Source: Bacteroidales bacterium
Lineage (GTDB): Bacteria; Bacteroidota; Bacteroidia; Bacteroidales; F082
NCBI GenBank assembly: GCA_029983675.1
Contig: JASBYY010000004.1
Coordinates: 6,497 to 70,496 of the forward strand
DNA: 64,000 nt
Direction: 5' to 3'
The notes beneath the pieces are model-generated. The model was not told where the DNA came from, did not search any database, and worked only from the letters and a program-made list of their open reading frames with translations. A program made the position numbers and the translations under genes. Positions 22,933-36,582 of this stretch are shown piece after piece; positions within the stretch are counted from its first letter, which is position 1; each line of letters opens with the position of its first letter.

Positions 22933-23071
22933 GACGATTTGATTTCTATTGGGCAAAAATAAGAAAAAGTCGAAAACGATGATCAACTCCTTATAAACAC
23001 TATCTCACACAGAATGCGCAGAATACGCAGAATTATACATAACATGCGAGAAGGCTTCTTAGCTAATCACG

Positions 23072-23936
23072 CCCTTAATCCTTGTTGTAGTGGAATTTGA
23101 CTTGACAAAATAAGATATCTTGTACCCAAGGATTTACAAATCGTCTTAATCCTTGTTGTAGTGGAATTTGACTTGACAAGTTATAAGTGAGTCGTTTTAT
23201 AACGACCTTCTGTCTTAATCCTTGTTGTAATTTAAGCCTGTTTTCGATGCTTCACGTTTCAAGTTTTATAACGACCTTCTGTCTTAATCCTTGTTGTAGT
23301 GGAATTTGACTTGACAAACATGATATACAGTATCCTCTGGTCAACAGGGTCTTAATCCTTGTTGTAGTGGAATTTGACTTGACTTTATTTTGCGAACAGG
23401 AACAAGTTCCCACTACGTGTCTTAATCCTTGTTGTAGTGGAATTTGACTTGACGAAAAATAGGTTTGTGTCCATTGTTGGCACAGATACTGTCTTAATCC
23501 TTGTTGTAGTGGAATTTGACTTGACGCACAGAACACCCCGTATTTCGGGGTAAAAATTGTCTTAATCCTTGTTGTAGTGGAATTTGACTTGACTTGTCAT
23601 ATGCGACGAATACAGACTGATAGAAGTCTTAATCCTTGTTGTAGTGGAATTTGACTTGACGGAGCATCCAGAATATCTCCATTTTAAATGGAATGTCTTA
23701 ATCCTTGTTGTAGTGGAATTTGACTTGACCCAAATGCGAATCATCAGCCACTCCAAGTATGAGAGTCTTAATCCTTGTTGTAGTGGAATTTGACTTGACC
23801 TTTGCGGATGACGAAGACGACTTTGCCAAAAGTCTTAATCCTTGTTGTAGTGGAATTTGACTTGACCAGAGATGGAGTAGTGAGGACTGCGAAGGTGGTA
23901 CGTCTTAATCCTTGTTGTAGTGGAATTTGACTTGAC
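23072..23936 (-). CRISPR. CRISPR array: 13 repeat copies of 35 bp, 12 spacers of 32-37 bp
   Basis: The plus-strand repeat is GTCTTAATCCTTGTTGTAGTGGAATTTGACTTGAC. Repeats start at 23072 (2 mismatches), 23143, 23212 (only the first 18 nt conserved), 23281, 23349, 23419, 23491, 23559, 23626, 23695, 23765, 23832 and 23902. Orientation is inferred as minus. The cas genes and AT-rich leader lie on the 23937+ side, the degenerate repeats lie at the far end, and the minus-strand repeat ends in ATTAAGAC. Confidence 0.97.
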
Positions 23937-24385
23937 ACCTTGATTCTCAATATATTGTCATCAATAATCACCTTGTTTGTTTGGCGCAACTCCTTTCATT
24001 TGTTTGTTTTACATAAGCTTTCCTGAATTCTTCGCAAAGATACTGTTTTTTTGAATACAAAAACAGGAATTTTTACACATTATTTTCACTTTGCCTTATC
24101 ATTCAATCATTTACATGGAAAAAAAAGTTCTCAAACCGAACCTCTATTGGGCAAAATCCATCCATTTGCGAAGAAATGGCCTTTCTTTATTTTACATATC
24201 ATTGACAATAAGCATTTTACAATAAGCTCATCCAAAAATGTTCGCAAATGAACGACTCAAATACGCATCAGAATGCAATTTGCGAACAATTCGCGGCGGC
24301 AGTTTTCCCATGCTATTTGGTTACCACTTTCATTATCGGCGTTTTAGCGTTTTACAAAATGTTCGCAAACGATTTGGCCTCCCTC
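23937..24385 (-). promoter_or_regulatory. CRISPR leader (449 bp) with a candidate array promoter
   Basis: This is the non-coding interval between the cas2 stop and the first repeat, AT-rich next to the array. On the minus strand, TATCTTTG (plus 24035-24042) matches the Bacteroides -7 consensus TAnnTTTG about 100 bp upstream of the first repeat. There are five copies of TTTGCGAA[CG]A. Confidence 0.6.
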
Positions 24386-24685
24386 CTACACCATCCGCAC
24401 CGTGTCGGGAGGTTCGCGACGGTCGGGTTGATACACGATCTTCGTATAGCAATTGACACAAACCGGATAATAAATCACCGAATCCTGCCCGTCGTCAACA
24501 ATCTCACCTATCTTTCGCCTGAGTCTGCCGTACACGGCTTCCGTCAGCATACATTCGAACACGCTGTAATTCACGCGTGTTCCGTTTGCCTCAAGCAATT
24601 TCACCACTCGGTTCCGCCGTTTGTCATCCACAATATCGTACGCTACAACTATGAACAATTTCCTGGCGCTTATTCTCTTTACCAT
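24386..24685 (-). CDS. cas2: CRISPR-associated endoribonuclease Cas2
   Basis: 99 aa. The start FIVVAYDIVDDKRRNRVVKLL...YSVFEC is the canonical Cas2 ferredoxin-fold N-terminus. It overlaps the cas1 stop by 7 nt. Confidence 0.9.
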   Translation of the reverse strand: MVKRISARKLFIVVAYDIVDDKRRNRVVKLLEANGTRVNYSVFECMLTEAVYGRLRRKIGEIVDDGQDSVIYYPVCVNCYTKIVYQPDRREPPDTVRMV

Positions 24686-26949
24686 TTTGCAATATAAGGT
24701 TTGAACGTTTTCCCGCTTCCAATATAAGCGGCTATTTCTTTGGCCTGTTCTACAAAGATGCGTTCGAAGGGCATCTCTTCGCCGCGATACTTCTCATACC
24801 TGTTCATGCGCTCAAGCACGCCTTTGGTCAGAATCCTTTTAGTTGCGTCGCACAGAAGGTTTCCTTCCATTTTCAATGCCATGCCCCTTTGCACCATTCC
24901 TATCACCACCCTGTCGGCTCCCTGCGCCCTGAATAGCTCTACGACATCGAAAACCAATGTGGGTTTTCCGGCTTGCCTTTTGTGCAACACCCCGTCCATC
25001 GGGTTCAGGCCCTCGCCGAGCAACGCCTGCCAAACCCTGTTATACAAAAACGAATAGGCATAGTTCAGCATGGAATTGACCAAATCGGTGGCGCCTCGCC
25101 GCACCCTTCCTTCAAAGCCCGCTTTATCGTCTTTAAGCAACTTCCCGACATATTTCCAATAGTGGACAGCGGCCTGTGCTTCTTTTCCTATCAATACCTC
25201 GTTATAGTTTTCGGCAAAAGGCAGCTCCTTGAGTTCGCCGACGATTTCCGACAACTTGGCCGTGGTCAGCGCAAATTGCGTGTCAACATCTTCTTTTGTG
25301 GTCTTATGGTACTTCTGGAAGTACTTCACCAAGTTCGCCTGGTTTTTAAGCTTTCCTAAAATCAGTCGCTTAGCCAGAACGAAGCGTTGGTTTTCGGTCA
25401 TTCGAGCCTGTTGCCCCCAAAGTGTGCTCTCCATGAATTTTAGGCTGAGTACCGAGGCATAATGTACGGAGCTATCAAAAAAATCGACGGGTATTCTCCT
25501 ATCCATGCAGAACCGGATCACATTGCTCGACAGCGACACGCCTTGCCCTATCACGGTAAGATGTCGCAGCGAAGCGGAAGGCTTCTTGTAGGCCATCTTA
25601 CCTTGTATGCGCACGACAATGTTCTGCCCGCTTATTCCAATGTAGCTACCCGGAGTACGGACCACCAATTCGGAGCCTTCGGCTTCTTTTTTCCGATACT
25701 CTGTCTTTCGGCTGTTGATGAGGCGACGATTCTGGTCATCGGCAATTTTCGACTGTTTCTTGCCTTTGACGGCCAGGTAGGTGTCGGTCAGCTGTTGAAG
25801 GATTTGTTTTCGCTTGAGTTGCATTTCAGCCGAAAGAAATGCAATCTCTGCCAATCCGTTTTTCAACACGGAGATATTCCTGATTTTACCGACCTGCTGT
25901 TCTATCATGGTCTGTACTTTTCGCACAAGAGCTTTGTCCAACTCTACCAATGTGTTTTCGGGAAGCAACTTTCCGTAATAGTTGCGTATGCCGTTCCACA
26001 GCTTTGTCTCTTTGTCGGTGAAAACGCCGTTGTGCGACTCGAGACCGTCAATCCGCTGCAAAAGTTCTCTCTTTTTATTTTCGGAAAGAGACAGTCCCGT
26101 TTTGTCCAGTGTGATGCCGAGAAACTCGAAGCCGTCTTCGATTTTCCCGATTTCAGGTGCGTTGAGCGACAGTTGGAGCCGCTCTTTCAGAAAAACCGTC
26201 GCCTCTTCCCTTATGGCCTCGGCCCTGTTCTGCGTTTCGCACAAGATGATGAAATCGTCGGCATAACGCACATACGACCGTGTTCGTGTCAGAATGAACT
26301 GGTCGAACTGGTGCAGGTAGAGATTGGCCAGCATGGGCGACAGTACGGCTCCTTGCGGCACGCCACATTCGATTTCTTCCCATTTCTGTTTCTTGTTTAC
26401 CATGCCCATTTTCACAGAAAGCTGAATCAATCGGTTGATTTCCTCATCGGGAATCAAGGATCGAAGCCTTGCAAAAAGAATATCGTGGTTGATGGTATCG
26501 AAATAGTTGTCAATATCCAAGCGAAGCAGCCACTGATTGGCTTTGTTTTGACATTCAAACAAAGCCCGTCGAATGGCTTTTGCATGACCTTTCTGCGGAC
26601 GATAGCCGTAACTGTTGCCTAAAAACAACTTTTCGAAACGAGGCTCGACGATTTGCTTTATCGCCGTTTGCACCGTCTTGTCTTTCAGCGAAAGCAGCCC
26701 TATCGTCCGGGTTTCACCCGTTTTCTTGGGGATGCCCATCTTTTTATAGGGCTGTGGTTTCCATGTCCCCGAACGCAATTCGGCAATTAGTTCTGTCAAA
26801 TGCTTGTCAAGGCGGTTTTCAAACTCAACGATAGTAAAACCGTCAATGCCTCCAACGCTGTTTTTGGCTTTTACCAGTCGCCATGCCGACATCAGCTGTC
26901 CGAGAGAGCACAATGCTTCAAATAACGATTTACCCATGTTTCGTTTCAA
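24679..26949 (-). CDS. cas1: Reverse transcriptase-Cas1 fusion protein
   Basis: 756 aa. The N-terminal ~330 aa form a group II intron-like RT (GIDG..., LDIDNYFDTINH, GVPQGAVLSPMLANLYL, YVRYADDFIIL). The C-terminal ~320 aa resemble Cas1 (...LHKRQAGKPTLVFDVVELFR...). Confidence 0.9.
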   Translation of the reverse strand: MKRNMGKSLFEALCSLGQLMSAWRLVKAKNSVGGIDGFTIVEFENRLDKHLTELIAELRSGTWKPQPYKKMGIPKKTGETRTIGLLSLKDKTVQTAIKQIVEPRFEKLFLGNSYGYRPQKGHAKAIRRALFECQNKANQWLLRLDIDNYFDTINHDILFARLRSLIPDEEINRLIQLSVKMGMVNKKQKWEEIECGVPQGAVLSPMLANLYLHQFDQFILTRTRSYVRYADDFIILCETQNRAEAIREEATVFLKERLQLSLNAPEIGKIEDGFEFLGITLDKTGLSLSENKKRELLQRIDGLESHNGVFTDKETKLWNGIRNYYGKLLPENTLVELDKALVRKVQTMIEQQVGKIRNISVLKNGLAEIAFLSAEMQLKRKQILQQLTDTYLAVKGKKQSKIADDQNRRLINSRKTEYRKKEAEGSELVVRTPGSYIGISGQNIVVRIQGKMAYKKPSASLRHLTVIGQGVSLSSNVIRFCMDRRIPVDFFDSSVHYASVLSLKFMESTLWGQQARMTENQRFVLAKRLILGKLKNQANLVKYFQKYHKTTKEDVDTQFALTTAKLSEIVGELKELPFAENYNEVLIGKEAQAAVHYWKYVGKLLKDDKAGFEGRVRRGATDLVNSMLNYAYSFLYNRVWQALLGEGLNPMDGVLHKRQAGKPTLVFDVVELFRAQGADRVVIGMVQRGMALKMEGNLLCDATKRILTKGVLERMNRYEKYRGEEMPFERIFVEQAKEIAAYIGSGKTFKPYIAKW

Positions 26950-26985: not shown

Positions 26986-27888
26986 CTATTTGAACTGTCC
27001 GTAACCCACATTGGTCTTGGCACCGACGCCGACAGTGAGTATGATTTCTTGAAAAAGTTGCGCTTTTTGGTTAGCATTTAAAGAGATTTTCCTTACTCCG
27101 TTGTTCGATTTAATTTCAACCGTACTATCCGTTAGTTTGAACCTAAATTCAAATGTAATGCCCGGCAATACTTTTATGAACATCAATGGAGTCGGATTTT
27201 TTAGAGGATCGGGATGATGTGTGATAAAGTCACTGGCAAGGAACTTCTTGCTTTTTCCCGTTTTTTCAATGTTGATGACAGCATCGAAAAACACATCTTT
27301 CCCTTCGGCATCTTGTTTGCCAAAAATATCATCTTTCAACGTTTTTAATGCTTCGATATCGATATTCTTCAGCATGTTTTCCCATGCGTTCTTATTCTGT
27401 TCATCGGTACATCTCTTTTTTACCTCTTCAAGAATGAATTTTATCGTATCCAACGAGGTTTGATCAGTTTGATCTTTTTCGTTCTCAAACACACTTTTCA
27501 ATACACCTTTGATGGAACTGCCCGGAATAACAGGTTGTCCGGTTGTATGGTCAAAATAAAAGCCTATCTTGATATCGCCTTTTGCATTACTATCGTGCGT
27601 ATAGCCTGAACCACATAATAATCCGGGATAGGTTGTAGCCAGATTAAAATGATGGGAAGCCGCATTATTCTCAATTTGCGTGTAATCTTTCAATGTGTTA
27701 GCAAAAACAGCTTTATAGAATATGTCAAAGGGAGTGACTTTCGCATCTTTGGGAATATCAATGAACAACCTCTCTTTTTCATTATTTTGAGCAGGTGTAA
27801 ATTTTATTTTACGCTTAATCGCATCTTCCGTATATAATCTTTTATATACCATCAAGCCCACATTGGGCGCTATAAAATTCCATGCCAT
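26986..27888 (-). CDS. cmr6: Type III-B RAMP protein Cmr6
   Basis: 300 aa with the RAMP motif PGSSIKGVLKS and a C-terminal glycine-rich loop GVGAKTNVGYGQFK. It is the last gene of the cmr1-6 series. Confidence 0.85.
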   Translation of the reverse strand: MAWNFIAPNVGLMVYKRLYTEDAIKRKIKFTPAQNNEKERLFIDIPKDAKVTPFDIFYKAVFANTLKDYTQIENNAASHHFNLATTYPGLLCGSGYTHDSNAKGDIKIGFYFDHTTGQPVIPGSSIKGVLKSVFENEKDQTDQTSLDTIKFILEEVKKRCTDEQNKNAWENMLKNIDIEALKTLKDDIFGKQDAEGKDVFFDAVINIEKTGKSKKFLASDFITHHPDPLKNPTPLMFIKVLPGITFEFRFKLTDSTVEIKSNNGVRKISLNANQKAQLFQEIILTVGVGAKTNVGYGQFK

Positions 27889-27890
27889 AA

Positions 27891-28286
27891 TTAGTCATTT
27901 TTAGGTTTAGGTGTGGGGTAGGTACGAATAGCTAACTTTAACGCGATGGCACATTCCTGAATCTTCTTTTTCAGACATTCGTCATTATATCGGGTAATGA
28001 CTTCTTCCAATAAATGTTGTTCGTTGTTGAATATGCCTATTTCTGGGCTTTGCAGCATTTTCTCAAGTGCTACCGGTATAAGGCTTCTATCTGCATTGGT
28101 GGTTTGCTCCGCACCTTTTGAATAAAATATCAATGTGGGAAGCAATCCCGATGATATGAGACTTGCACCAAAAGAGGAGATATATCCATTGTAAGTTTTG
28201 TCAATTTCTCCGTTTTTAACTATACCTAATCTGTTGTCTTCCAGCACTTGTATGGCGACAGGGATATATTTTTCTATATTTCTCAT
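27891..28286 (-). CDS. cmr5: Type III-B small subunit Cmr5
   Basis: 131 aa predicted helical protein between cmr4 and cmr6. Its start overlaps the cmr4 stop by 4 nt. The assignment rests mostly on size and position. Confidence 0.7.
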   Translation of the reverse strand: MRNIEKYIPVAIQVLEDNRLGIVKNGEIDKTYNGYISSFGASLISSGLLPTLIFYSKGAEQTTNADRSLIPVALEKMLQSPEIGIFNNEQHLLEEVITRYNDECLKKKIQECAIALKLAIRTYPTPKPKND

Positions 28287-29104
28287 GACTTTGTATTTTT
28301 GAACTTGATTTTATGAAATTTACATAACCCATAGCCTACGCTGCTGTTGGCTCCGATTTGAATCGGTTCTTCTAAGAGTTCCTTTTCAAATTCCGAAAAG
28401 GTTGCGTCGTCTAATAAACCCTGTTTGGGAACCATATAAGTTATAAATATCGTTTGGTGAGGAACCACCTCCTCGTACCAAAGATTTTTGTCCTCATCCA
28501 GGCGATTGCGGGCGATTACAGGTAAGTTTTCAGCATAATTTCTGAATTTATCATCGCTTACCAGGGCATATTGTTGATCAAAAGCTGTAAAATTAATGTC
28601 AACTGTGTCTGAAAATGGCGTTGAATAATCTACCCTTTGCAAATCATCGTCTTCCAGAAATATCCTGTCTACAAGGCCTTCTTCCTTTGTAAACAGTTTA
28701 TCTGTTTCTGTTGGTAGTTTCAGTAGCTCTTTATCAAGAATCATTTTTGCTTTCTCGTTCACAAATTCCACATTTTGAGGACAGAATGTGAGAGCAAACT
28801 GACGATGTGAACATCTTACGGGTAAAGCTACCAGATCAGCATTCAAAAAATTAAGGTTGCCGCTTTCGGTATCATTATCATTATTTGTTTTCTTACCGAA
28901 TAGTAGGTTCGTTTTTTGATCGGTTTTCCCCCAAACGCTCTCAAAATGTTCTCTGAGAGATCCCTTTAAACTTGATGCGTGAATGGTAGGATAATTGAAT
29001 ATCGTGTCGCGTTGTACTAATTTGTCCACGATCCCGTAACTGGCATCACCGCTCCCTACATGTAGGTTGGTTATACACTGAATTAAATACGCTTGTGTTG
29101 TCAT
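28283..29104 (-). CDS. cmr4: Type III-B backbone RAMP protein Cmr4
   Basis: 273 aa. The N-terminus is TNLHVGSGDASYGIVDKLVQRD, followed by PTIHASSLKGSLREHFE and a C-terminal G-rich loop IGANSSVGYGLCKF. Confidence 0.85.
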   Translation of the reverse strand: MTTQAYLIQCITNLHVGSGDASYGIVDKLVQRDTIFNYPTIHASSLKGSLREHFESVWGKTDQKTNLLFGKKTNNDNDTESGNLNFLNADLVALPVRCSHRQFALTFCPQNVEFVNEKAKMILDKELLKLPTETDKLFTKEEGLVDRIFLEDDDLQRVDYSTPFSDTVDINFTAFDQQYALVSDDKFRNYAENLPVIARNRLDEDKNLWYEEVVPHQTIFITYMVPKQGLLDDATFSEFEKELLEEPIQIGANSSVGYGLCKFHKIKFKNTKS

Positions 29105-29110
29105 TTTTTG

Positions 29111-30178
29111 TTATTTTTTAATGGTTTGAATTCTATTAAACCCTATATTTCGGGCATTATTACTCTTATTGAATAATTCTTGGGCCTTTTGCATTTCATC
29201 TTCATTTTCAAAAAACAATATGCTGCCGCGTTTAAGCAAATTATAACGATAGCTCATTTTATACCCTTTTGAAAAGCTGCTGTAATTCTCACTGTTGTTG
29301 GAGCTATGAAGATTTCGGAAAGAGATGTTTTCATTGATTGCAAAAACCACGTGTTCCCATACTTCTTCTTCAACAAAACAGTCGGAAATACAATAAATAG
29401 CCGGTTTAAGGCGTGGCGGAAGGTTAAGTTTAAAATCGGTACGATTACCGCTGCATTCATTTACTTCAAGGAGGAATAATTGCTGTTCGGCTCCCATGGT
29501 AATGAATTGTTTATCATGGCTTAAATTACAATCGATTTCAGCATCAAAGGCAAAAGACCACCCTTTATTCAACTTATACATTACCTGCTTGTAAAATCCG
29601 TCATCTTCCGTTTTTCCTTTTTCCCCTTTTTTATTGCCCACGGTTTCATGTTTGATAAACACAAAATCCGTATCATTTTCTTTATCTTCATCTTTAAAGA
29701 ACTTGAAAGTACTATAATCTTTTACGTTGATAAATGTCGGATTATAGCCAACTTTCGCATCGTACCCTTTCAAATAGTAATTGTTATAGAGTTCTTTTAA
29801 TTCAAATTCTTGATCAAAAGGTGCAATGATATATTTTTCACTTTCTCTAAGAAAATAAAGTGGTGATATTTCATTTATTATTCCAAATTTCTGCTCCGTT
29901 TTTCCATCTTTACCCACGAAGCCATAAATAAAACTATTTTCACCAATCAGATCATTGGCTTGAGATTCTTTTTTGTTTTTACGCGGACTGAGGCAACCGT
30001 TTTTCATCAGTAGATAGTAACGTAACGTTCCAAGCAGGGTGGTTTGTTGGGGATATAATTCAGACCTCACATAGTAGTCCATTTCAAACTTGCCCGGTTC
30101 TCCTTTTTTTTCAGTATGTTTTTCCCCTCCAAAAAAATAGGCATTTACCGGGGTGAGCTTTATTTGATAATTGTTCAT
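29111..30178 (-). CDS. cmr3: Type III-B protein Cmr3
   Basis: 355 aa with N-terminus KLTPVNAYFFGGEK typical of Cmr3. Position and size fit, and there is a 4 nt overlap with the cas10 stop. Confidence 0.75.
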   Translation of the reverse strand: MNNYQIKLTPVNAYFFGGEKHTEKKGEPGKFEMDYYVRSELYPQQTTLLGTLRYYLLMKNGCLSPRKNKKESQANDLIGENSFIYGFVGKDGKTEQKFGIINEISPLYFLRESEKYIIAPFDQEFELKELYNNYYLKGYDAKVGYNPTFINVKDYSTFKFFKDEDKENDTDFVFIKHETVGNKKGEKGKTEDDGFYKQVMYKLNKGWSFAFDAEIDCNLSHDKQFITMGAEQQLFLLEVNECSGNRTDFKLNLPPRLKPAIYCISDCFVEEEVWEHVVFAINENISFRNLHSSNNSENYSSFSKGYKMSYRYNLLKRGSILFFENEDEMQKAQELFNKSNNARNIGFNRIQTIKK

Positions 30179-31821
30179 TGATCTTTTGATTTTTTAGGTT
30201 GAATAAACTGATAGTATCGCAATATAGTGAAGAGGATGTCTTTAAAACGTTTATTTTGCTTGTATTCTTCTTCTTTGCTGCATACCGTAAGATAATCTTG
30301 TTTTAAAACTTTTATTAGCGATGTAAAATAATCGGTAAAAGTGTTTTTCTCTTCATGTATTTCTTCGTTGAAGAAGTTTTCAATGAAAGCATCAATCCGA
30401 TCATTTCGTACCGCATGGATGAAAGTCGTGAAAAATACATCGTCTTTCAACCGCTGAATCATTCCGCTGAGCGTGTCTTTTTTATCTTTTCCTTGCAGCT
30501 GTAAGGTGAGCAATTCATAAATTCTCTTAGCGGAAGCGGTTTTTGACTTGTCGATAAAACACTCCATATACTGACCGCTATGTTTTTGAAAACGAACGCT
30601 TACACCATTTTTATTTGGGAAAAGCTCCTTGTCCTGTTTGCACTTTTCCAACATGTTATGGGCTTGTTCCATCGCTTCACGCATGGGAAATTTATAATAA
30701 GAGAGCATAAAACCATACGATAAAGTGGGAATGGTTACTCCTTGCTCTTCGGCGTATTGACCCAATGTATCGTTGAAATCCTTATCTAAATCTTTGATAA
30801 GGATTGCCAATGATTTGAGATAATTGTCTCCATTGTAAGCAATGGGTAAAAAGGCCAAAATGTCTTCTCCTCCTAAATATATGGCACTCCCACCGTAGTT
30901 GTGGATGCTCTCTTCCGCTTTTTTTCCGAACAGAAGAAGTTTTTCGGAAAAAGTTTTTAATTTTTCCCTATCATTGGCAACACTGCTGAGCAAAGCACCA
31001 ATGTTATCACCATCGGCATACAGCACAGCGTAATATTTATGATAATCCTGCATCTTGTCTTTGAAAACGTCGTTCTTTTTCAACAAGTCAATAATCTGGA
31101 TATCTTCGTTTTTAAAATCTTCTTCTAACAACCGATTGTATGTTGTTGCATCTGCTTCTTTTAACAAGTCTGCAGTAGATATCTCTGCGATTGATTTGAA
31201 GTGCCGTCCTTTTTCATCTCCGAAAGCATCTTTTTTCAGAGCGGTGTTTTCGTTCCATTTCGTAGCAAAATAATCAATCAAAAAATTTGAGTTGATATCA
31301 AATGCATATCTTTTATTTAATTCTTTGTTGTCTAACAGATTGTTAAGGATTTTTAAAACCGAATTATCAGATTTCCCTTCTTTATTCTTAGATGTTGTAA
31401 TAGAGGTCAACTCTTTATCCGTTAAAGAAATTTCAACAATATGGAGATTCAAGTAGTTGCGTAAAAATGCAACAATGTCTCCGTTTTTCAGTGTTGCGTT
31501 TTTACAACAGATGTCATCTGCAAAGAACTTTATCGTATTATCAACAAAGCCTTGAATATCTAATTTTGATTTATTTACAAAATATAGGCGATCGGCATAC
31601 AGCCCAGCCCCATATTTTCCTTTATTCACCCCTTTCTGCGTATTGTCATCTAAAGGTTTGTCATAGGGTAACAGTATCTCCCAATCATTGTCTATAGCCT
31701 GCTCAAGTATTTTCCTCATGAAAAGTGAAAAGAAATAGCTGGCCGCCCATATGCTGCGCGTGCGTTTTGCTTGGGTAAAGGTATCATATATGGGCCCAAT
31801 GGTTATTGCTGTGTATTGCAT
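30175..31821 (-). CDS. cas10: Cas10/Cmr2 large subunit, short form without an HD nuclease domain
   Basis: 548 aa. The palm/cyclase motifs are YAVLYADGDNIG (res 265-276) and YLGGEDILAF (GGED at res 317-320, nt 30862-30873). No N-terminal H..HD motif is present, since the protein starts directly with MQYTAITIGPIYDTF. Confidence 0.85.
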   Translation of the reverse strand: MQYTAITIGPIYDTFTQAKRTRSIWAASYFFSLFMRKILEQAIDNDWEILLPYDKPLDDNTQKGVNKGKYGAGLYADRLYFVNKSKLDIQGFVDNTIKFFADDICCKNATLKNGDIVAFLRNYLNLHIVEISLTDKELTSITTSKNKEGKSDNSVLKILNNLLDNKELNKRYAFDINSNFLIDYFATKWNENTALKKDAFGDEKGRHFKSIAEISTADLLKEADATTYNRLLEEDFKNEDIQIIDLLKKNDVFKDKMQDYHKYYAVLYADGDNIGALLSSVANDREKLKTFSEKLLLFGKKAEESIHNYGGSAIYLGGEDILAFLPIAYNGDNYLKSLAILIKDLDKDFNDTLGQYAEEQGVTIPTLSYGFMLSYYKFPMREAMEQAHNMLEKCKQDKELFPNKNGVSVRFQKHSGQYMECFIDKSKTASAKRIYELLTLQLQGKDKKDTLSGMIQRLKDDVFFTTFIHAVRNDRIDAFIENFFNEEIHEEKNTFTDYFTSLIKVLKQDYLTVCSKEEEYKQNKRFKDILFTILRYYQFIQPKKSKDQ

Positions 31822-31825
31822 GATT

Positions 31826-33238
31826 TTACTTCTTATTTAAATTACTCAATGAGGTATAACCAATTTTTGTTGACGCCATTTTCATAAAGTCCACAAGTGA
31901 AAAATCTTTTGGCGTTGACAAGATGAAATCTTTTTGTTTACTTTCTTCCAAAGAACACATATCATTTCTTTTATTTCTATAATCATGAATTCGGAAAATA
32001 AATTCTTTATCCTGGATTTCTTTTGACAACTCATTTCCTACCAAATAAACATTATTGTCAATAACCTTGAACAGAAGAGGTGACCGAAACCTTTCAATAT
32101 CTGAAGAGAGTTCATAGTAATGCGTTTTATCATTCTCATCGACAATGGTAGCATAATCATTTCTATGCATTCTTTCTGCCTCCTCAACAATTTCATCTCC
32201 TTTCAAAAACACACTAACGATAATAACATCTTTGTCTTTCTCATTATAAAGTTTAAACTCATATTTTGATGACAATCCTAACAATGCACGAATAAAATAA
32301 TATTGGAAAGTCTGTGGATCATTCCATCCTTTTTCTGTTTTCTCATTATTCCCATAAATTGGAGGTTTCTTACCCTTGAGATTAAACCCTTTCCCCCTAA
32401 TGCCTTGTTTTATTTTTCGTTTCTCCCAACGAAAACCTTTGCCAACAAAATATTCGAAAAGTATAGATTTTTTATATATTTCATTGCTATGTCGTGTCTT
32501 AGGTATATTTATACCTGATTTCAGCAACTTATAATCATCATTAATGGTTTGTAAAATCTGAACTATTTCAGAAGACTGTAATGTTTTTTTGTACACAAAA
32601 GAAAACTCTTGTTTCAATAATTCCTCATTATTTTTGAGTTCTTTATTTTTCTGATTGTACTCAATCTTTGTTGGCAAAAAACAACCGAAGCCCTTACTTT
32701 GCCGTGTGCCAAAATTTGTAGAAATGAAAAAAAGCTGTATGTATTTTAAAATTTCTGAGAAAAGATCTTCTTTTTTTGTTAGAATTAAAACGTTTGTGTC
32801 ATCACTTTCAACAATCCCTTTCTTTTCTATTTTGTTCCAATCAGCGATTACATTATGACTTTTTACTATTTGAGAATTCTGTTTTTCCTGTGCAAAAAAA
32901 GGACTGTTGCTTATTACCTTAATCTCTCGATTTTCAAGGTTTTTTGCATCGCTCCCTTTAATATATGAAGCCAATAAGTATTCAGTTCTGGTTGAATTGC
33001 TATTAATATCTATCCTCATCTTATAATCTAATGCCGGATGTTCTCCTTTGCCTACAAGCCATTTGTTCTCTTTGGCCGTATTGATGCCTTGTTGGTAGTC
33101 TCCGTTTCCCAATTTCGTCAGAATAAACTTATCCAACTTCGGCTTCACTTCGCTTGCCCGCAGGGTGGCTCCCTCCTGATCGTGCTGAAAGTGGATCAGA
33201 GGTGTGTGCTGTTTTAAAGTTACTTTTAATGTATGCAT
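31826..33238 (-). CDS. cmr1: Type III-B RAMP protein Cmr1
   Basis: About 470 aa counted from the ATG at 33238 (MHTLKVTLKQHTPLIHFQHD...). It has the G-rich loop TNFGTRQSKGFGCF and is the first of the cmr series. The track ORF extends to 33295. Confidence 0.8.
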   Translation of the reverse strand: MHTLKVTLKQHTPLIHFQHDQEGATLRASEVKPKLDKFILTKLGNGDYQQGINTAKENKWLVGKGEHPALDYKMRIDINSNSTRTEYLLASYIKGSDAKNLENREIKVISNSPFFAQEKQNSQIVKSHNVIADWNKIEKKGIVESDDTNVLILTKKEDLFSEILKYIQLFFISTNFGTRQSKGFGCFLPTKIEYNQKNKELKNNEELLKQEFSFVYKKTLQSSEIVQILQTINDDYKLLKSGINIPKTRHSNEIYKKSILFEYFVGKGFRWEKRKIKQGIRGKGFNLKGKKPPIYGNNEKTEKGWNDPQTFQYYFIRALLGLSSKYEFKLYNEKDKDVIIVSVFLKGDEIVEEAERMHRNDYATIVDENDKTHYYELSSDIERFRSPLLFKVIDNNVYLVGNELSKEIQDKEFIFRIHDYRNKRNDMCSLEESKQKDFILSTPKDFSLVDFMKMASTKIGYTSLSNLNKK

Positions 33239-33245
33239 AACAGTC

Positions 33246-33653
33246 TTATTTTTTAGTTTTTGAGTTTGCAGAATTAAGAATGATGGATAACCCATCGATT
33301 ATTTTTTTGTAGAGTTCAATATCATGTTCAAGCAAGGCTATCTTGGAGTTGTAAGTGTCTTCAATAGAACTTTTGTCTTTTCCCAATTTTTCGGTTTTCT
33401 GCTTTAATTCATTGATTTCATTCTGAAGTGTTTCATCAGAAGCAACATTCACCTTTGCAATTAGATTCCAGTATTTTTCCTGTTCAAACGACTTTGTTTT
33501 CATCTTTCGAGCAAAGCGATTCTGAATGCAAGGTTTTACAATATGTTTCAACAAGAACACAAGGGCAACTAATCCGATGACACCCCAACATAAAGACGGG
33601 ATGGCATTCACTACATTCTGCCAATCTACGGCTAATAATACCAAGTCTTTCAT
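33246..33653 (-). CDS. Small membrane-anchored coiled-coil protein, uncharacterised, embedded in the type III-B operon
   Basis: 135 aa with one predicted TM helix (AIPSLCWGVIGLVALVFLL) followed by a K/E/L-rich coiled-coil-like segment. Its ATG overlaps the CorA-like stop (ATGA at 33650-33653), and it ends 7 nt before the cmr1 ATG. Confidence 0.65.
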   Translation of the reverse strand: MKDLVLLAVDWQNVVNAIPSLCWGVIGLVALVFLLKHIVKPCIQNRFARKMKTKSFEQEKYWNLIAKVNVASDETLQNEINELKQKTEKLGKDKSSIEDTYNSKIALLEHDIELYKKIIDGLSIILNSANSKTKK

Positions 33654-35116
33654 TTTATCTTCCTTTTAATGATCAATATAACTCCAATTACTACTGAGGC
33701 AACAAAACCCATGAGAGCAAACTGATAACCCCAGATATTGAACCAACGGGACAATCCTCCGCATCCGTTCAATGCCGTGTTACTCATCCCGAAGATGCCG
33801 GCGACAACCGTTATCGGAACAAAAATCGTTGCAATCCATGTGAGGAGTGATACCGTATTGTTGACTCTACGATCTTCTCGCAAAGTTACATAGTTGTATA
33901 ATTCCTCTATTTCTTTATCCAGTTTTTCTACGTGTTCGTTTATTCGTAACAGCTTGTACAGTTTCTCATACATCTCAATGCCTTGATCTTGTGCCGAAAC
34001 CTCCCGGAAATGAATCTTGTTGACAAAACGGATGTATTCTTTGTACAAGGAACTCAATTTCAAGCTCAACCCTTTCTTGTTATCCATATTGCTGATGTTT
34101 GTCACCTCTGCCGAGAATCGCAAAATCGAGGCTTTTTGAACCAAAACAAGTTCGGACATCCGAGCATACTCTGTTTCAAAATATTGAATTAGAAAATTAG
34201 GACATGTTGTATTGGCTAAATAGACCATTGAATACCGTGACACACCATACAACGAGCACCATTTTTGCCAGCGTTCGTAGGTAGATTCCTTTATGAGTGT
34301 TTTCTGCATTTCCGTATTTTGGCAGCTCATACCATTCGGATTATCAACAAACAGAAACTCATACCAATTATTACTCATGATGAAGTCTTCGTACCCTCCG
34401 CCACAGAACTGATTAGCCCATTCATCGTTCTTATACCATGACAGCACAAACATCCTATCGTCAATAACCGGTTTCAGCTGAATATTAGCTGCCACTTCAT
34501 GGATCATATCCGTAATAAAATCCGCCGGTTTGTTGTGCGGTGTTTTGTTGTCATATCGGCTGAAATCTTCGCAATAGCCGGTTTCACGTCCGTGGAGTCC
34601 GATGAATTCCAATTTTTGGGCAATCAGAAAGCGATTTTCCACATCTTTGATAAAAGGTGGAAAAACTCTTCTGCCATACTGATTGATATTCAACACAGCC
34701 TCCGGGTCTGCATATCTTCTGTTTTCCATGAAAAATGATAGAACACCAACGCCGGTCGAATACAGGTTCAAGTTGATGGCTTTTACATTCAACTCATATT
34801 CTTTCCCGCCGGCACAAGTTATTTTATACAATACCTCTCCGTGTTTTGGCTCATTTCGTTCATAATGGCGAATTAAAGAACCGTTTGAACCGTTGTCATA
34901 CAAGGCCTCGTGAACAAATTCATAAAAATAGTTTTTCTCGTTGTACAAATCGTCCGATTCCTGATTATTGGCAGGTGTTGTCACTCTTTCCCAATTGTCC
35001 GAATCGGAATACTCGATTTTATTCAGGTCGATTTGTTCCGACAAGGTTTTCTCTTCAAAACCTCTAACATCCCATCGAAAGGGGAATTGAAAATTATGAT
35101 AACTATATTCCATCAT
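33650..35116 (-). CDS. CorA-like membrane protein (type III CRISPR-associated CorA effector candidate)
   Basis: 488 aa with a ~420 aa soluble N-terminal part. The C-terminal architecture is CorA-like: TM1 (LLTWIATIFVPITVVAGIFGMS), a short loop, TM2 (YQFALMGFVASVVIGVILII), then a basic tail KRKIK. The signature is GMS (nt 33782-33790) where canonical CorA has GMN. Confidence 0.75.
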   Translation of the reverse strand: MMEYSYHNFQFPFRWDVRGFEEKTLSEQIDLNKIEYSDSDNWERVTTPANNQESDDLYNEKNYFYEFVHEALYDNGSNGSLIRHYERNEPKHGEVLYKITCAGGKEYELNVKAINLNLYSTGVGVLSFFMENRRYADPEAVLNINQYGRRVFPPFIKDVENRFLIAQKLEFIGLHGRETGYCEDFSRYDNKTPHNKPADFITDMIHEVAANIQLKPVIDDRMFVLSWYKNDEWANQFCGGGYEDFIMSNNWYEFLFVDNPNGMSCQNTEMQKTLIKESTYERWQKWCSLYGVSRYSMVYLANTTCPNFLIQYFETEYARMSELVLVQKASILRFSAEVTNISNMDNKKGLSLKLSSLYKEYIRFVNKIHFREVSAQDQGIEMYEKLYKLLRINEHVEKLDKEIEELYNYVTLREDRRVNNTVSLLTWIATIFVPITVVAGIFGMSNTALNGCGGLSRWFNIWGYQFALMGFVASVVIGVILIIKRKIK

Positions 35117-35849
35117 TTATGATTTTACTAATTGATTCAACATAATTCTTTATTTCATCGGATGAGAAACGTCCTCTTGGCAGACCGAAGAAGCCGCTTT
35201 CTCCGCCCCCGTGAAACGCCCGTCCTGTTTTGACTTCCTCTTGAAAACAATTGACAAGTTGAGGTTGTCTTTCTCCATAATAGACCAATTCCGCATTGTT
35301 ATAAACCAACAGGTTCCGGAAAGGATACAGGTAATCGACTATGGGTGAAAACCTGGAAACAGAGGTATATACTATTTTTAGATTTCCCTTTGATACGGCT
35401 TGTCGAGCATCTTCTTCCGCTATTTTTTCTTCCTCTTCCGTTACACCTTGGGCTTTCCGATCCGCCTGCCTGATGGATGATATTTCTTCATCCGTTGCTC
35501 CCAAAGCCTTCATCCCTCCGATGTATGCCGAATCGTTAGCGACAACCAGTTGCTGCCGGCGGTTCAACGGTACGTGCAGTAGGTCGGCAACCTGCTCCAA
35601 TGCGGATTTTTTCCCAAAATAATCGTTGTGGTGGTCAATGCGGACATAATGTGCAGGCGGAAGAATGTCTTCTCTCAATTCAATACCGTAAAACAGATCG
35701 GTTTCGTTGATTTCAGCCTGATATGCACTGAGCGTTGCATTATTCCACGACAAGCCGTTATCATGAAAACATTCACCACTTGCTAACAACATGTCCCTTA
35801 TCGTAAGCATCTCCAAATCATGTCCACCCAATAGAAAGATTCTCTTCAT
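35103..35849 (-). CDS. DHH-family phosphodiesterase (NrN-like, CRISPR-associated)
   Basis: 248 aa with GGHDLEM near the N-terminus, a DHH motif (VRIDHHND) and a GGG motif (FHGGGESG) late in the protein. It overlaps the CorA-like start by 14 nt. Confidence 0.7.
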   Translation of the reverse strand: MKRIFLLGGHDLEMLTIRDMLLASGECFHDNGLSWNNATLSAYQAEINETDLFYGIELREDILPPAHYVRIDHHNDYFGKKSALEQVADLLHVPLNRRQQLVVANDSAYIGGMKALGATDEEISSIRQADRKAQGVTEEEEKIAEEDARQAVSKGNLKIVYTSVSRFSPIVDYLYPFRNLLVYNNAELVYYGERQPQLVNCFQEEVKTGRAFHGGGESGFFGLPRGRFSSDEIKNYVESISKIINDGI

Positions 35850-35871: not shown

Positions 35872-36582
35872 TTAAATACTTACCTCCATCCTCTTCACCA
35901 TTCCGAACCCCACGCTCACGCTTTTGCCCAGACCGATATAGTCGGGCAGGCTCACGTTGCACTTGAACTGCACGTCAAAGCCCTGCATCTTGACACCTTT
36001 ATAAGAATAGATGCGTGCATCTTCCAGTGCCGTGATGCGCACTTTCACGTCTTTTTCAAAATGAATGTCGAGACCGGTAGCAAAGGAAAGAATATTGCCC
36101 GTCAAGACACGCTCTAAAAATTCACATTGCTCCGCAAGACTTTCCAACTTCTTGTATTCCTGATAGTTCTCCTGATTAAGCGGCAGCCATTTGCGCAAAG
36201 TGTACGAAAACCATTCATCCCACACCTGCACCAATACCTGATCGGCTTTCACTTGCGACACTTCTAAATGCACCGGCCTTTCATTTATATTAATATCGAA
36301 ATTGCAGTTAGAGAAAAACTCGCCAATGGCCTCCGTTCCGTCACCGATACAAACGATGGCCGCCTTGCTGCCGATACGTTTGTATTGTATCAGTGGATAG
36401 GCATAACGGAATCCGCCATCCTGATGGTTGTGAAACAGCACATCGGCCTCGCCGCCCATGGAAGCGTTGACTGCTACCCTGAAAAACGGCACCTCTCCTT
36501 GACAAATCTCGTTTTTAAACTTCACTCTTAAGATCTTCATGCCCGATCGTTTTTCTAGCTCATTGATTTCCAACATATACAA
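35872..36582 (-). CDS. cas6: CRISPR-associated endoribonuclease Cas6
   Basis: 236 aa, with an alternative start at 36540 (MKILRVKF...). It has a C-terminal glycine-rich loop GLGKSVSVGFGMV typical of Cas6 and is the first gene of the operon. Confidence 0.75.
   Translation of the reverse strand: MYMLEINELEKRSGMKILRVKFKNEICQGEVPFFRVAVNASMGGEADVLFHNHQDGGFRYAYPLIQYKRIGSKAAIVCIGDGTEAIGEFFSNCNFDININERPVHLEVSQVKADQVLVQVWDEWFSYTLRKWLPLNQENYQEYKKLESLAEQCEFLERVLTGNILSFATGLDIHFEKDVKVRITALEDARIYSYKGVKMQGFDVQFKCNVSLPDYIGLGKSVSVGFGMVKRMEVSI

What the first reader, a model, noticed from the sequence alone, without database searches (positions are those of the whole stretch)
30175..31821. Minimal Cas10 (548 aa) lacking HD domain and carrying GGED instead of canonical GGDD
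Seen: the protein begins directly with MQYTAITIGPIYDTF, with no N-terminal His/Asp HD motif. It therefore cannot have the ssDNase activity of classic Cas10. The first palm metal site is YADGDNIG (res 268-275). The second palm signature is G-G-E-D (res 317-320, nt 30862-30873) where Cas10 cyclases usually show GGDD. Inference: all interference output must go through the nucleotide-conjugating palm site. The Glu substitution could reflect the changed chemistry, namely ATP attack by a SAM ribose hydroxyl rather than ATP oligomerisation, or it could be lineage noise.
Basis: partly seen in the sequence, partly recalled or inferred. Interest (0 to 1): 0.6.

Follow-up and report, generated by a model that had tools for sequence, protein, structure and literature searches.

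The report
HD-less Cas10 with GGED motif variant
This gene is an ordinary member of the already characterised family of short, nuclease-domain-free Cas10 enzymes that work with the CorA membrane effector (SAM-AMP signalling), and its GGED motif is a conservative spelling of GGDD inherited by one sub-branch of that family, not a mark of the special chemistry.

Summary
A 548-aa ORF on the minus strand (30175-31821) is a Cas10/Cmr2 with no HD domain. It carries YADGDNIG (residues 268-275) and GGED (317-320). It sits in a complete type III-B operon: cas6b, nrn, corA, small ORF, cmr1, cas10, cmr3-6, RT-cas1, CRISPR array.

The idea that Glu319 reflects SAM-AMP chemistry is not supported:
- The two experimentally proven SAM-AMP synthases carry GGDD (B. 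fragilis) and GGDE (type III-D2).
- Among family loci with enough flank, CorA lies beside 51 of 53 GGDD and 7 of 8 GGED Cas10 genes.
- GGED marks one well-supported clade nested among GGDD lineages. Two members reverted to GGDD and still have CorA.
- GGED also occurs in a different Cmr2 lineage without CorA (L139; PDB 9arw).
- The residues that specify SAM in B. fragilis Cas10 (D70, E151) are present here as D77 and E167. They are invariant in the whole family.

HD-less Cas10 and the GGED variant are both already published. "All output via the palm" overstates the case, because the Cmr4 RNase Asp27 is intact.

Verdict: a new member of a known kind, low interest. This scan had already noted the locus on the same window.

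The parts
30175..31821 (-). cas10/cmr2, 548 aa, HD-less
   Evidence: TIGR02577 scores 104.6 bits (cut-off 79.4); PF22335 palm2 4.5e-25; Cmr2_N 2.8e-06. PADLOC Cas10b 5.3e-65. AF2 model pLDDT 89.8; Foldseek TM 0.72-0.79 to B. fragilis Cas10 9lq5-8_B.
30862..30873 (-). GGED (residues 317-320), codons GGA GGA GAA GAC; the catalytic hairpin of palm 2
   Evidence: It aligns with GGDD (G326-D329) of B. fragilis Cas10.
30997..31020 (-). YADGDNIG (residues 268-275); D270 and D272 are the beta-1 metal-binding aspartates of palm 2
   Evidence: D270, G271 and D272 are at least 98% conserved in the family. The motif lies inside PF22335, residues 263-398.
31591..31593 (-). D77, equivalent to B. fragilis Cas10 D70 (acceptor/SAM site)
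   Evidence: Family alignment: Asp in all 133 rows. Role of D70 from PMC10600005.
31321..31323 (-). E167, equivalent to B. fragilis Cas10 E151 (acceptor/SAM site)
   Evidence: Family alignment: Glu in all 133 rows. Role of E151 from PMC10600005.
31826..33295 (-). cmr1 (the true start may be a later ATG)
   Evidence: PADLOC Cmr1 1.5e-73.
33246..33653 (-). 135-aa ORF: one N-terminal TM helix plus a charged helical tail; function unknown
   Evidence: Positional analogues follow corA in L170, L171 and L172.
33650..35116 (-). CRISPR-associated CorA-like membrane effector
   Evidence: PADLOC CorA 1.3e-130. Pfam CorA 4.8e-11 on residues 381-485.
35103..35849 (-). NrN, the DHH phosphodiesterase that accompanies CorA
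   Evidence: PADLOC DHH_CorA 7.5e-71.
35872..36582 (-). cas6b
   Evidence: Pfam Cas6b_N and Cas6b_C.
29111..30178 (-). cmr3
   Evidence: PF09700 1.7e-12.
28283..29104 (-). cmr4 (Cas7 backbone RNase) with catalytic D27 conserved
   Evidence: TIGR02580 160.6 bits. Alignment to B. fragilis Cmr4 9lq5_D. D27A phenotype in PMC10600005.
27891..28286 (-). cmr5
   Evidence: TIGR01881 28.2 bits.
26986..27888 (-). cmr6
   Evidence: TIGR01898 129 bits.
24679..26949 (-). RT-Cas1 fusion
   Evidence: RVT_1 2e-35 and Cas_Cas1 4e-58.
23071..23937 (.). CRISPR array, 13 repeats of about 37 nt

Best explanation
The gene encodes the Cas10/Cmr2 large subunit of a type III-B (Cmr) complex of the CorA-associated, HD-less family whose prototype is Bacteroides fragilis Cas10. 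When the crRNA-guided complex binds target RNA, the palm-2 site (D270, D272, E319, D320 with two metal ions) holds donor ATP. The acidic acceptor pocket (D77, E167) holds S-adenosylmethionine. The SAM ribose 3'-OH then attacks the ATP alpha-phosphate to give SAM-AMP. SAM-AMP opens the CorA-like membrane effector, and NrN hydrolyses the signal. Glu319 is a conservative Asp-to-Glu replacement of the first acidic residue of GGDD. It was fixed once at the base of one sub-clade of the family and is functionally equivalent. Shown here: family membership, fold, absence of an HD domain, conservation of all catalytic and SAM-site residues, operon context, and the phylogenetic pattern of the motif. Inferred: the product (SAM-AMP) and the equivalence of Glu and Asp.
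For: Family and fold: (TM 0.72-0.79 to 9lq5-8_B; 9LQ8 is named as the B. fragilis complex in PMC13294483). The SAM-site residues D70/E151 map to D77/E167 and are invariant in all 133 family rows. Chi et al. report these two as absolutely conserved in CorA-linked Cas10s and as required for SAM-AMP synthesis. CorA and NrN lie in the same operon. CorA is adjacent in 51 of 53 GGDD loci and 7 of 8 GGED loci with adequate flank (Fisher p 0.35). GGED forms one clade with support 99 in FastTree and 99.6 SH-aLRT in IQ-TREE. It is nested among GGDD lineages, and the outgroup is GGDD. Two GGDD revertants inside the clade still have CorA plus NrN or DEDD. E319 is GAA, one third-position change from an Asp codon. 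Published SAM-AMP synthases have GGDD and GGDE. GGED is listed among variants in effector-bearing loci (PMC11229360). From general knowledge, the homologous GGDEF domain tolerates D or E at this position; two GGEE cyclases turned up in the palm-2 survey.
Against: No biochemistry exists for any GGED-clade member. Identity to the characterised B. fragilis enzyme is only about 25%. Of nine clade-signature columns, four (A76, Y268, L316, E319) lie within two residues of catalytic or SAM-site residues. That would fit a coordinated active-site adjustment, although the enrichment is not significant against a fair null (p 0.05; 0.13 without position 319). One GGED-clade locus (L004) has no adjacent CorA on its short contig.
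Confidence: 0.85

Rival explanations
1. Glu319, perhaps together with A76, Y268 and L316, retunes the donor site in this clade. The enzyme would then make a different conjugate, use a different linkage or donor nucleotide, or prefer a different metal than the B. fragilis enzyme.
For: E is fixed in 52 of 54 clade members. Four of nine clade-signature columns flank active-site residues.
Against: The SAM-site residues are invariant across both motif states. The same effector (CorA) and the same degrading enzymes (NrN or DEDD) occur with both states. Revertants to GGDD keep the same context. The active-site enrichment is not significant. Proven SAM-AMP synthases already differ at this motif (GGDD, GGDE).
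Confidence: 0.08
2. It is an ordinary cyclic-oligoadenylate-producing Cas10, and the neighbouring CorA responds to cOA.
For: Hoikkala et al. propose a cA6-activated CorA subclass in Actinomyces. B. fragilis Cmr makes traces of pppApA.
Against: The acceptor pocket carries the acidic D77/E167 pair, where cOA synthases have N/R (P. furiosus N300/R436). The locus has NrN, a SAM-AMP-degrading partner, and no CARF, SAVED or Csm6-2 gene among the operon genes scanned. The proposed cA6 class lacks such degrading enzymes.
Confidence: 0.04
3. The Glu substitution cripples the cyclase, and the locus signals poorly or is decaying.
For: None beyond the departure from the GGDD consensus.
Against: E319 is conserved across a large, diverse clade with intact operons. 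All other catalytic residues are invariant. All operon genes are intact and there is a 13-repeat array.
Confidence: 0.03

Closest known systems
Bacteroides fragilis type III-B Cas10/Cmr2 (BfrCas10; PDB 9LQ5-9LQ8; Chi et al. 2023, PMC10600005)
   Same: It has no HD domain and starts with the same Cmr2_N motif. It has the same fold (TM 0.72-0.79) and the same SAM-site acids (D70/E151 = D77/E167). The operon partners are the same: CorA, NrN, Cmr1-6. Cmr4 D27 is conserved.
   Different: Identity is only about 25%. The window's protein is 548 aa against 600 aa. It has GGED instead of GGDD (E319 against D328) and ADGD instead of SDGD at the beta-1 site. It belongs to a separate sub-clade that is widespread in Bacteroidota metagenomes.
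Type III-D2 Cas10 SAM-AMP/SAM-AMP2 synthase (PMC13294483)
   Same: It is linked to CorA, conjugates SAM to ATP, and has a non-canonical acidic pair in the palm-2 motif (GGDE).
   Different: It has a different effector-complex architecture (Cas7x3, Cas7-5) and different SAM-contacting residues (E8, Q186). The E sits in the fourth rather than the third motif position.
Vibrio metoecus Cmr2 and other HD-less type III-B Cas10s (PMC8682760)
   Same: These are Cas10s of about 600 aa that lack the HD domain and signal only through the palm domains.
   Different: VmeCmr makes cA3 for NucC. The protein here has the acidic SAM pocket and CorA/NrN partners.
DtCmr Cas10 (PDB 9arw_A) and its relatives (Runella, Aureispira, L139)
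   Same: These are HD-less Cmr2 proteins. 9arw_A and L139 also read GGED at the same position.
   Different: They form a separate lineage (only the palm-2 domain aligns, E 1e-10). Close relatives are GGDD. L139 and the Runella locus have no CorA: Runella has a CARF csx2 and L139 a NARF-domain protein. The product of DtCmr is unknown to me.

Membership tests
CorA-associated HD-less Cas10/Cmr2 (BfrCas10-type SAM-AMP synthase) | Cas10/Cmr2 sequence family and two-palm fold | tested here: met
   TIGR02577 is above its cut-off and PF22335 matches. phmmer gives 2.2e-39 to 9lq5_B over residues 1-498. Foldseek gives TM 0.72-0.79.
CorA-associated HD-less Cas10/Cmr2 (BfrCas10-type SAM-AMP synthase) | No N-terminal HD nuclease domain | tested here: met
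   Residue 1 aligns with residue 1 of BfrCas10. No HD family hit. The ORF cannot extend upstream. No HD ORF on the contig.
CorA-associated HD-less Cas10/Cmr2 (BfrCas10-type SAM-AMP synthase) | Intact palm-2 catalytic acids (beta-1 DxD and the GGDD hairpin or a conservative variant) | tested here: met
   D270, D272, G317, G318 and D320 are at least 98% conserved. Position 319 is E in the clade and D elsewhere.
CorA-associated HD-less Cas10/Cmr2 (BfrCas10-type SAM-AMP synthase) | Two absolutely conserved acidic acceptor-site residues (Bfr D70, E151) | tested here: met
   D77 and E167; invariant in all 133 aligned family rows. Definition from PMC10600005.
CorA-associated HD-less Cas10/Cmr2 (BfrCas10-type SAM-AMP synthase) | Operon link to a CRISPR-type CorA and a SAM-AMP-degrading enzyme (NrN, DEDD or lyase) | tested here: met
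   PADLOC CorA 1.3e-130 and DHH_CorA 7.5e-71 in the same operon.
CorA-associated HD-less Cas10/Cmr2 (BfrCas10-type SAM-AMP synthase) | Synthesis of SAM-AMP from ATP and SAM on target-RNA binding | not testable with these tools
   This needs biochemistry.
Canonical cOA-synthesising Cas10 | Acceptor pocket suited to a triphosphate (P. furiosus N300/R436-type residues) | tested here: not met
   The equivalent positions are Asp77 and Glu167.
Canonical cOA-synthesising Cas10 | A CARF, SAVED or NucC-type effector in the locus | tested here: not met
   No such family was found among the operon genes scanned with Pfam, NCBIfam and PADLOC. Only the operon and its close flanks were scanned.

The most novel reading that the evidence does not exclude
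The GGED clade may have a coordinately retuned active site (E319 with A76, Y268 and L316). That could change metal preference, kinetics or product (for example linkage, or chain extension as in SAM-AMP2) relative to the B. fragilis enzyme. It would then define a second biochemical flavour of CorA-linked Cas10.
Probability: 0.07. Interest if true: 0.5.

Novelty: new member of a known kind. Interest (0 to 1): 0.15.

Why it matters
It matters little beyond annotation. The result shows that the palm-2 motif spelling (GGDD, GGED or GGDE) is not a predictor of SAM-AMP versus cOA chemistry. The acidic acceptor-site pair (D77/E167 here) and the CorA/NrN context are the useful predictors. It also shows that a large, mostly metagenomic Bacteroidota sub-clade of these enzymes carries Glu at the first catalytic acid. 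That makes it a natural variant for anyone studying metal coordination in Cas10.

Tried and rejected
- I looked for a motif-by-effector table in the supplements of Hoikkala et al. 2024 and found none.
- I tried to identify the organism and product of PDB 9arw (DtCmr), which also has GGED. There was no paper in the library and no close plasmid match. Its nearest plasmid relatives turned out to be GGDD.
- I tested whether clade-signature substitutions cluster at the active site. The raw picture is suggestive (4 of 9), but the result is not significant once restricted to columns conserved in the clade, so I do not build on it.
- I considered a separate HD nuclease encoded nearby and rejected it.
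- I considered a second Cas10 in the genome and found none.
- An independent-contrast test of motif against CorA has no power, because there is one origin and two reversions. The Fisher test ignores relatedness and is only descriptive.

Full report
OBSERVATION. The interval 30175-31821 holds a 548-aa ORF on the minus strand. It begins MQYTAITIGPIYDTF. YADGDNIG starts at residue 268 and GGED at residue 317. The motif codons at 30873-30862 are GGA GGA GAA GAC. The protein passes the curated cut-off of the Cas10/Cmr2 equivalog TIGR02577 (104.6 bits against 79.4). It also matches Pfam Cas10-Cmr2_palm2 (residues 263-398) and Cmr2_N (residues 4-52), and PADLOC Cas10b at 5e-65. They are the beta-1 metal-binding Asp pair and the catalytic hairpin of one domain, not a 'first' and a 'second' palm site.

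NO HD DOMAIN.
- No HD family matches the protein.
- Residue 1 aligns with residue 1 of the HD-less B. fragilis Cas10.
- The frame cannot be extended upstream, and cmr1 ends 4 nt upstream.
- An AlphaFold2 model (pLDDT 89.8, pTM 0.91) best matches chain B of 9LQ5-9LQ8 (TM 0.72-0.79). The next best matches are the HD-deleted P. furiosus Cmr2 structures. [quoted passage not shown]
- The whole genome (2.69 Mb, 73 contigs) has eight Pfam HD matches, and none is on the window's contig.
- This is the genome's only Cas10 palm-2 match.

CONTEXT. All genes are on the minus strand and tightly packed. In order they are:
- cas6b (35872-36582)
- a DHH phosphodiesterase matching PADLOC 'DHH_CorA' at 7.5e-71 (35103-35849)
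- a CRISPR-type CorA at 1.3e-130 (33650-35116)
- a 135-aa ORF
- cmr1, cas10, cmr3, cmr4, cmr5, cmr6
- an RT-Cas1 fusion
- a 13-repeat array
This is the architecture of the B. fragilis system. There, Cas10 joins ATP to S-adenosylmethionine to make SAM-AMP, which activates CorA and is degraded by NrN (PMC10600005).

WHAT THE LITERATURE ALREADY SAYS.
- Chi et al. describe B. fragilis Cas10 as lacking the HD domain, with catalytic D328/D329 (GGDD). They report two acidic residues, D70 and E151, that are absolutely conserved in CorA-linked Cas10s and line the SAM site. The D70N/E151R mutant abolishes SAM-AMP synthesis and enhances pppApA synthesis.
- Grueschow et al. had already noted a subset of type III-B Cas10s of about 600 aa without HD in gammaproteobacteria, firmicutes and bacteroidetes (PMC8682760).
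- Hoikkala et al. list GGED among the motif variants seen in Cas10s of effector-bearing loci (PMC11229360).
- The type III-D2 SAM-AMP synthase has GGDE (PMC13294483).
So the two proven SAM-AMP synthases already differ at this motif, and neither has GGED.

IS GGED TIED TO CorA? Among 121 database homologues, 93 read GGED, 27 GGDD and 1 GGDE. The GGED proteins are the nearer ones, mostly 35% identity or more.

A scan of reference genomes returned 79 loci of the family: 9 GGED and 70 GGDD. Iterated HMMs seeded from the window's own CorA and NrN were run on these loci. Counting only loci with enough upstream DNA, CorA is adjacent in 7 of 8 GGED loci and 51 of 53 GGDD loci. The one GGED exception, L004, has housekeeping genes upstream on a short contig.

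A tree was built from 136 Cas10s with the motif columns removed, rooted on two Runella/Aureispira-type Cmr2 proteins. It puts all GGED proteins in one clade (support 99) that also holds two GGDD proteins. Every other lineage, and the outgroup, is GGDD. A reduced IQ-TREE run gives the same clade at SH-aLRT 99.6. The simplest history is one Asp-to-Glu change, which is a single third-position substitution (GAA here), followed by two reversions. Both revertants still sit beside CorA and a phosphodiesterase: NrN in L171 and DEDD in L172. The closest GGED relatives (71% and 66% identity) have DEDD-CorA where the window has NrN-CorA. So the degrading enzyme also varies independently of the motif.

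GGED OUTSIDE THE FAMILY. A palm-2 survey of 401 genomes of the same phylum gave 78 ORFs: 72 GGDD, 3 GGDE, 2 GGEE (diguanylate-cyclase-like) and one GGED besides the window's own. That one, L139, is a 595-aa HD-less Cmr2 of a different lineage. Its locus has RT-Cas1, Cas6 and a NARF-domain protein but no CorA. The solved 'DtCmr' Cas10 (9arw_A) belongs to the same other lineage and also reads GGED. Its plasmid-borne relatives in Runella and Aureispira read GGDD, and the Runella locus carries a CARF-family csx2. So GGED is rare, has arisen at least twice, and is not confined to CorA-linked enzymes. I could not find out what DtCmr synthesises.

WHAT DOES TRACK THE CHEMISTRY. In a family alignment that includes the B. 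fragilis sequence, D70 and E151 fall on D77 and E167 of the window's protein. Both columns are invariant in all 133 family rows, GGED and GGDD alike. G317, G318, D320, D270 and D272 are at least 98% conserved.

A WEAK LEAD. Nine columns distinguish the GGED clade from the rest. Four of them (A76, Y268, L316, E319) lie within two residues of catalytic or SAM-site residues. Against the fair background of columns conserved within the clade, this gives p = 0.05, or 0.13 when position 319 is left out. It is not evidence of a remodelled site, but it is the reason I leave a small probability on a functional difference.

OTHER OUTPUTS. Cmr4 aligns with B. fragilis Cmr4 (1.8e-31) and keeps Asp27, the residue whose D27A change slows target-RNA cleavage. 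The complex is therefore expected to cut target RNA as well as signal. The statement that all output goes through the palm site is too strong. Lack of Cas10 DNase follows from the missing domain.

VERDICT. The protein meets every testable defining feature of the CorA-associated, HD-less, SAM-AMP-type Cas10 family. The GGED spelling is a conservative substitution shared by descent within one sub-clade. It does not co-vary with CorA or NrN and is not required for the chemistry. Both unusual features were already in the literature. This is a new member of a known kind and is of low interest. Earlier notes of this scan on the same window describe the same operon and agree with this reading.

Noticed in passing
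window 33246-33653 (-); L170 8081-8545; L171 2169-2633; L172 2740-2994: A small ORF (84-154 aa) with an N-terminal hydrophobic helix and a charged tail follows corA in the window and in three related loci. The copies share no detectable sequence similarity. L168 has no such ORF.
   Followed up: partly
L168, L170, L172 versus window 35103-35849: The closest GGED-clade relatives pair CorA with a DEDD-type exonuclease (PF16473), where the window has the DHH enzyme NrN. Several other loci have CorA-NrN fusions of 750-900 aa, for example L007, L025 and L078.
   Followed up: partly
window 24679-26949 and 35872-36582 versus L168 and L170: The window has a separate cas6b and a 756-aa RT-Cas1. Its nearest relatives have a triple Cas6-RT-Cas1 fusion of about 1015 aa.
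   Followed up: no
L010 (= L149) and L044: Two GGDD family members have more than 6 kb of upstream DNA but no CorA hit. What replaces CorA there was not examined.
   Followed up: no
L139 5088-5921 (-) and 3961-5025 (-): In the CorA-less GGED Cmr2 locus, a 277-aa protein with a NARF (nucleotidyltransferase-associated Rossmannoid) domain and a 354-aa protein with no family lie between cmr6 and cas6. They are possible effectors.
   Followed up: no
L162, L164, L166: Three palm-domain proteins of about 480-500 aa read HFDGNRFG ... LLWGGDE (GGDE). They scored weakly on the Cas10 palm-2 model and are probably a different small polymerase/cyclase family.
   Followed up: no
window 23211-23247: The third repeat from the leader-distal end of the CRISPR array is degenerate in its second half (65% identity to the consensus), while its neighbours are 89-100%.
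   Followed up: no
window 31826-33295 (-): Cmr1 is long, at 489 aa by the longest frame. It covers a 288-position PADLOC Cmr1 profile over residues 20-434, which implies large insertions.
   Followed up: no
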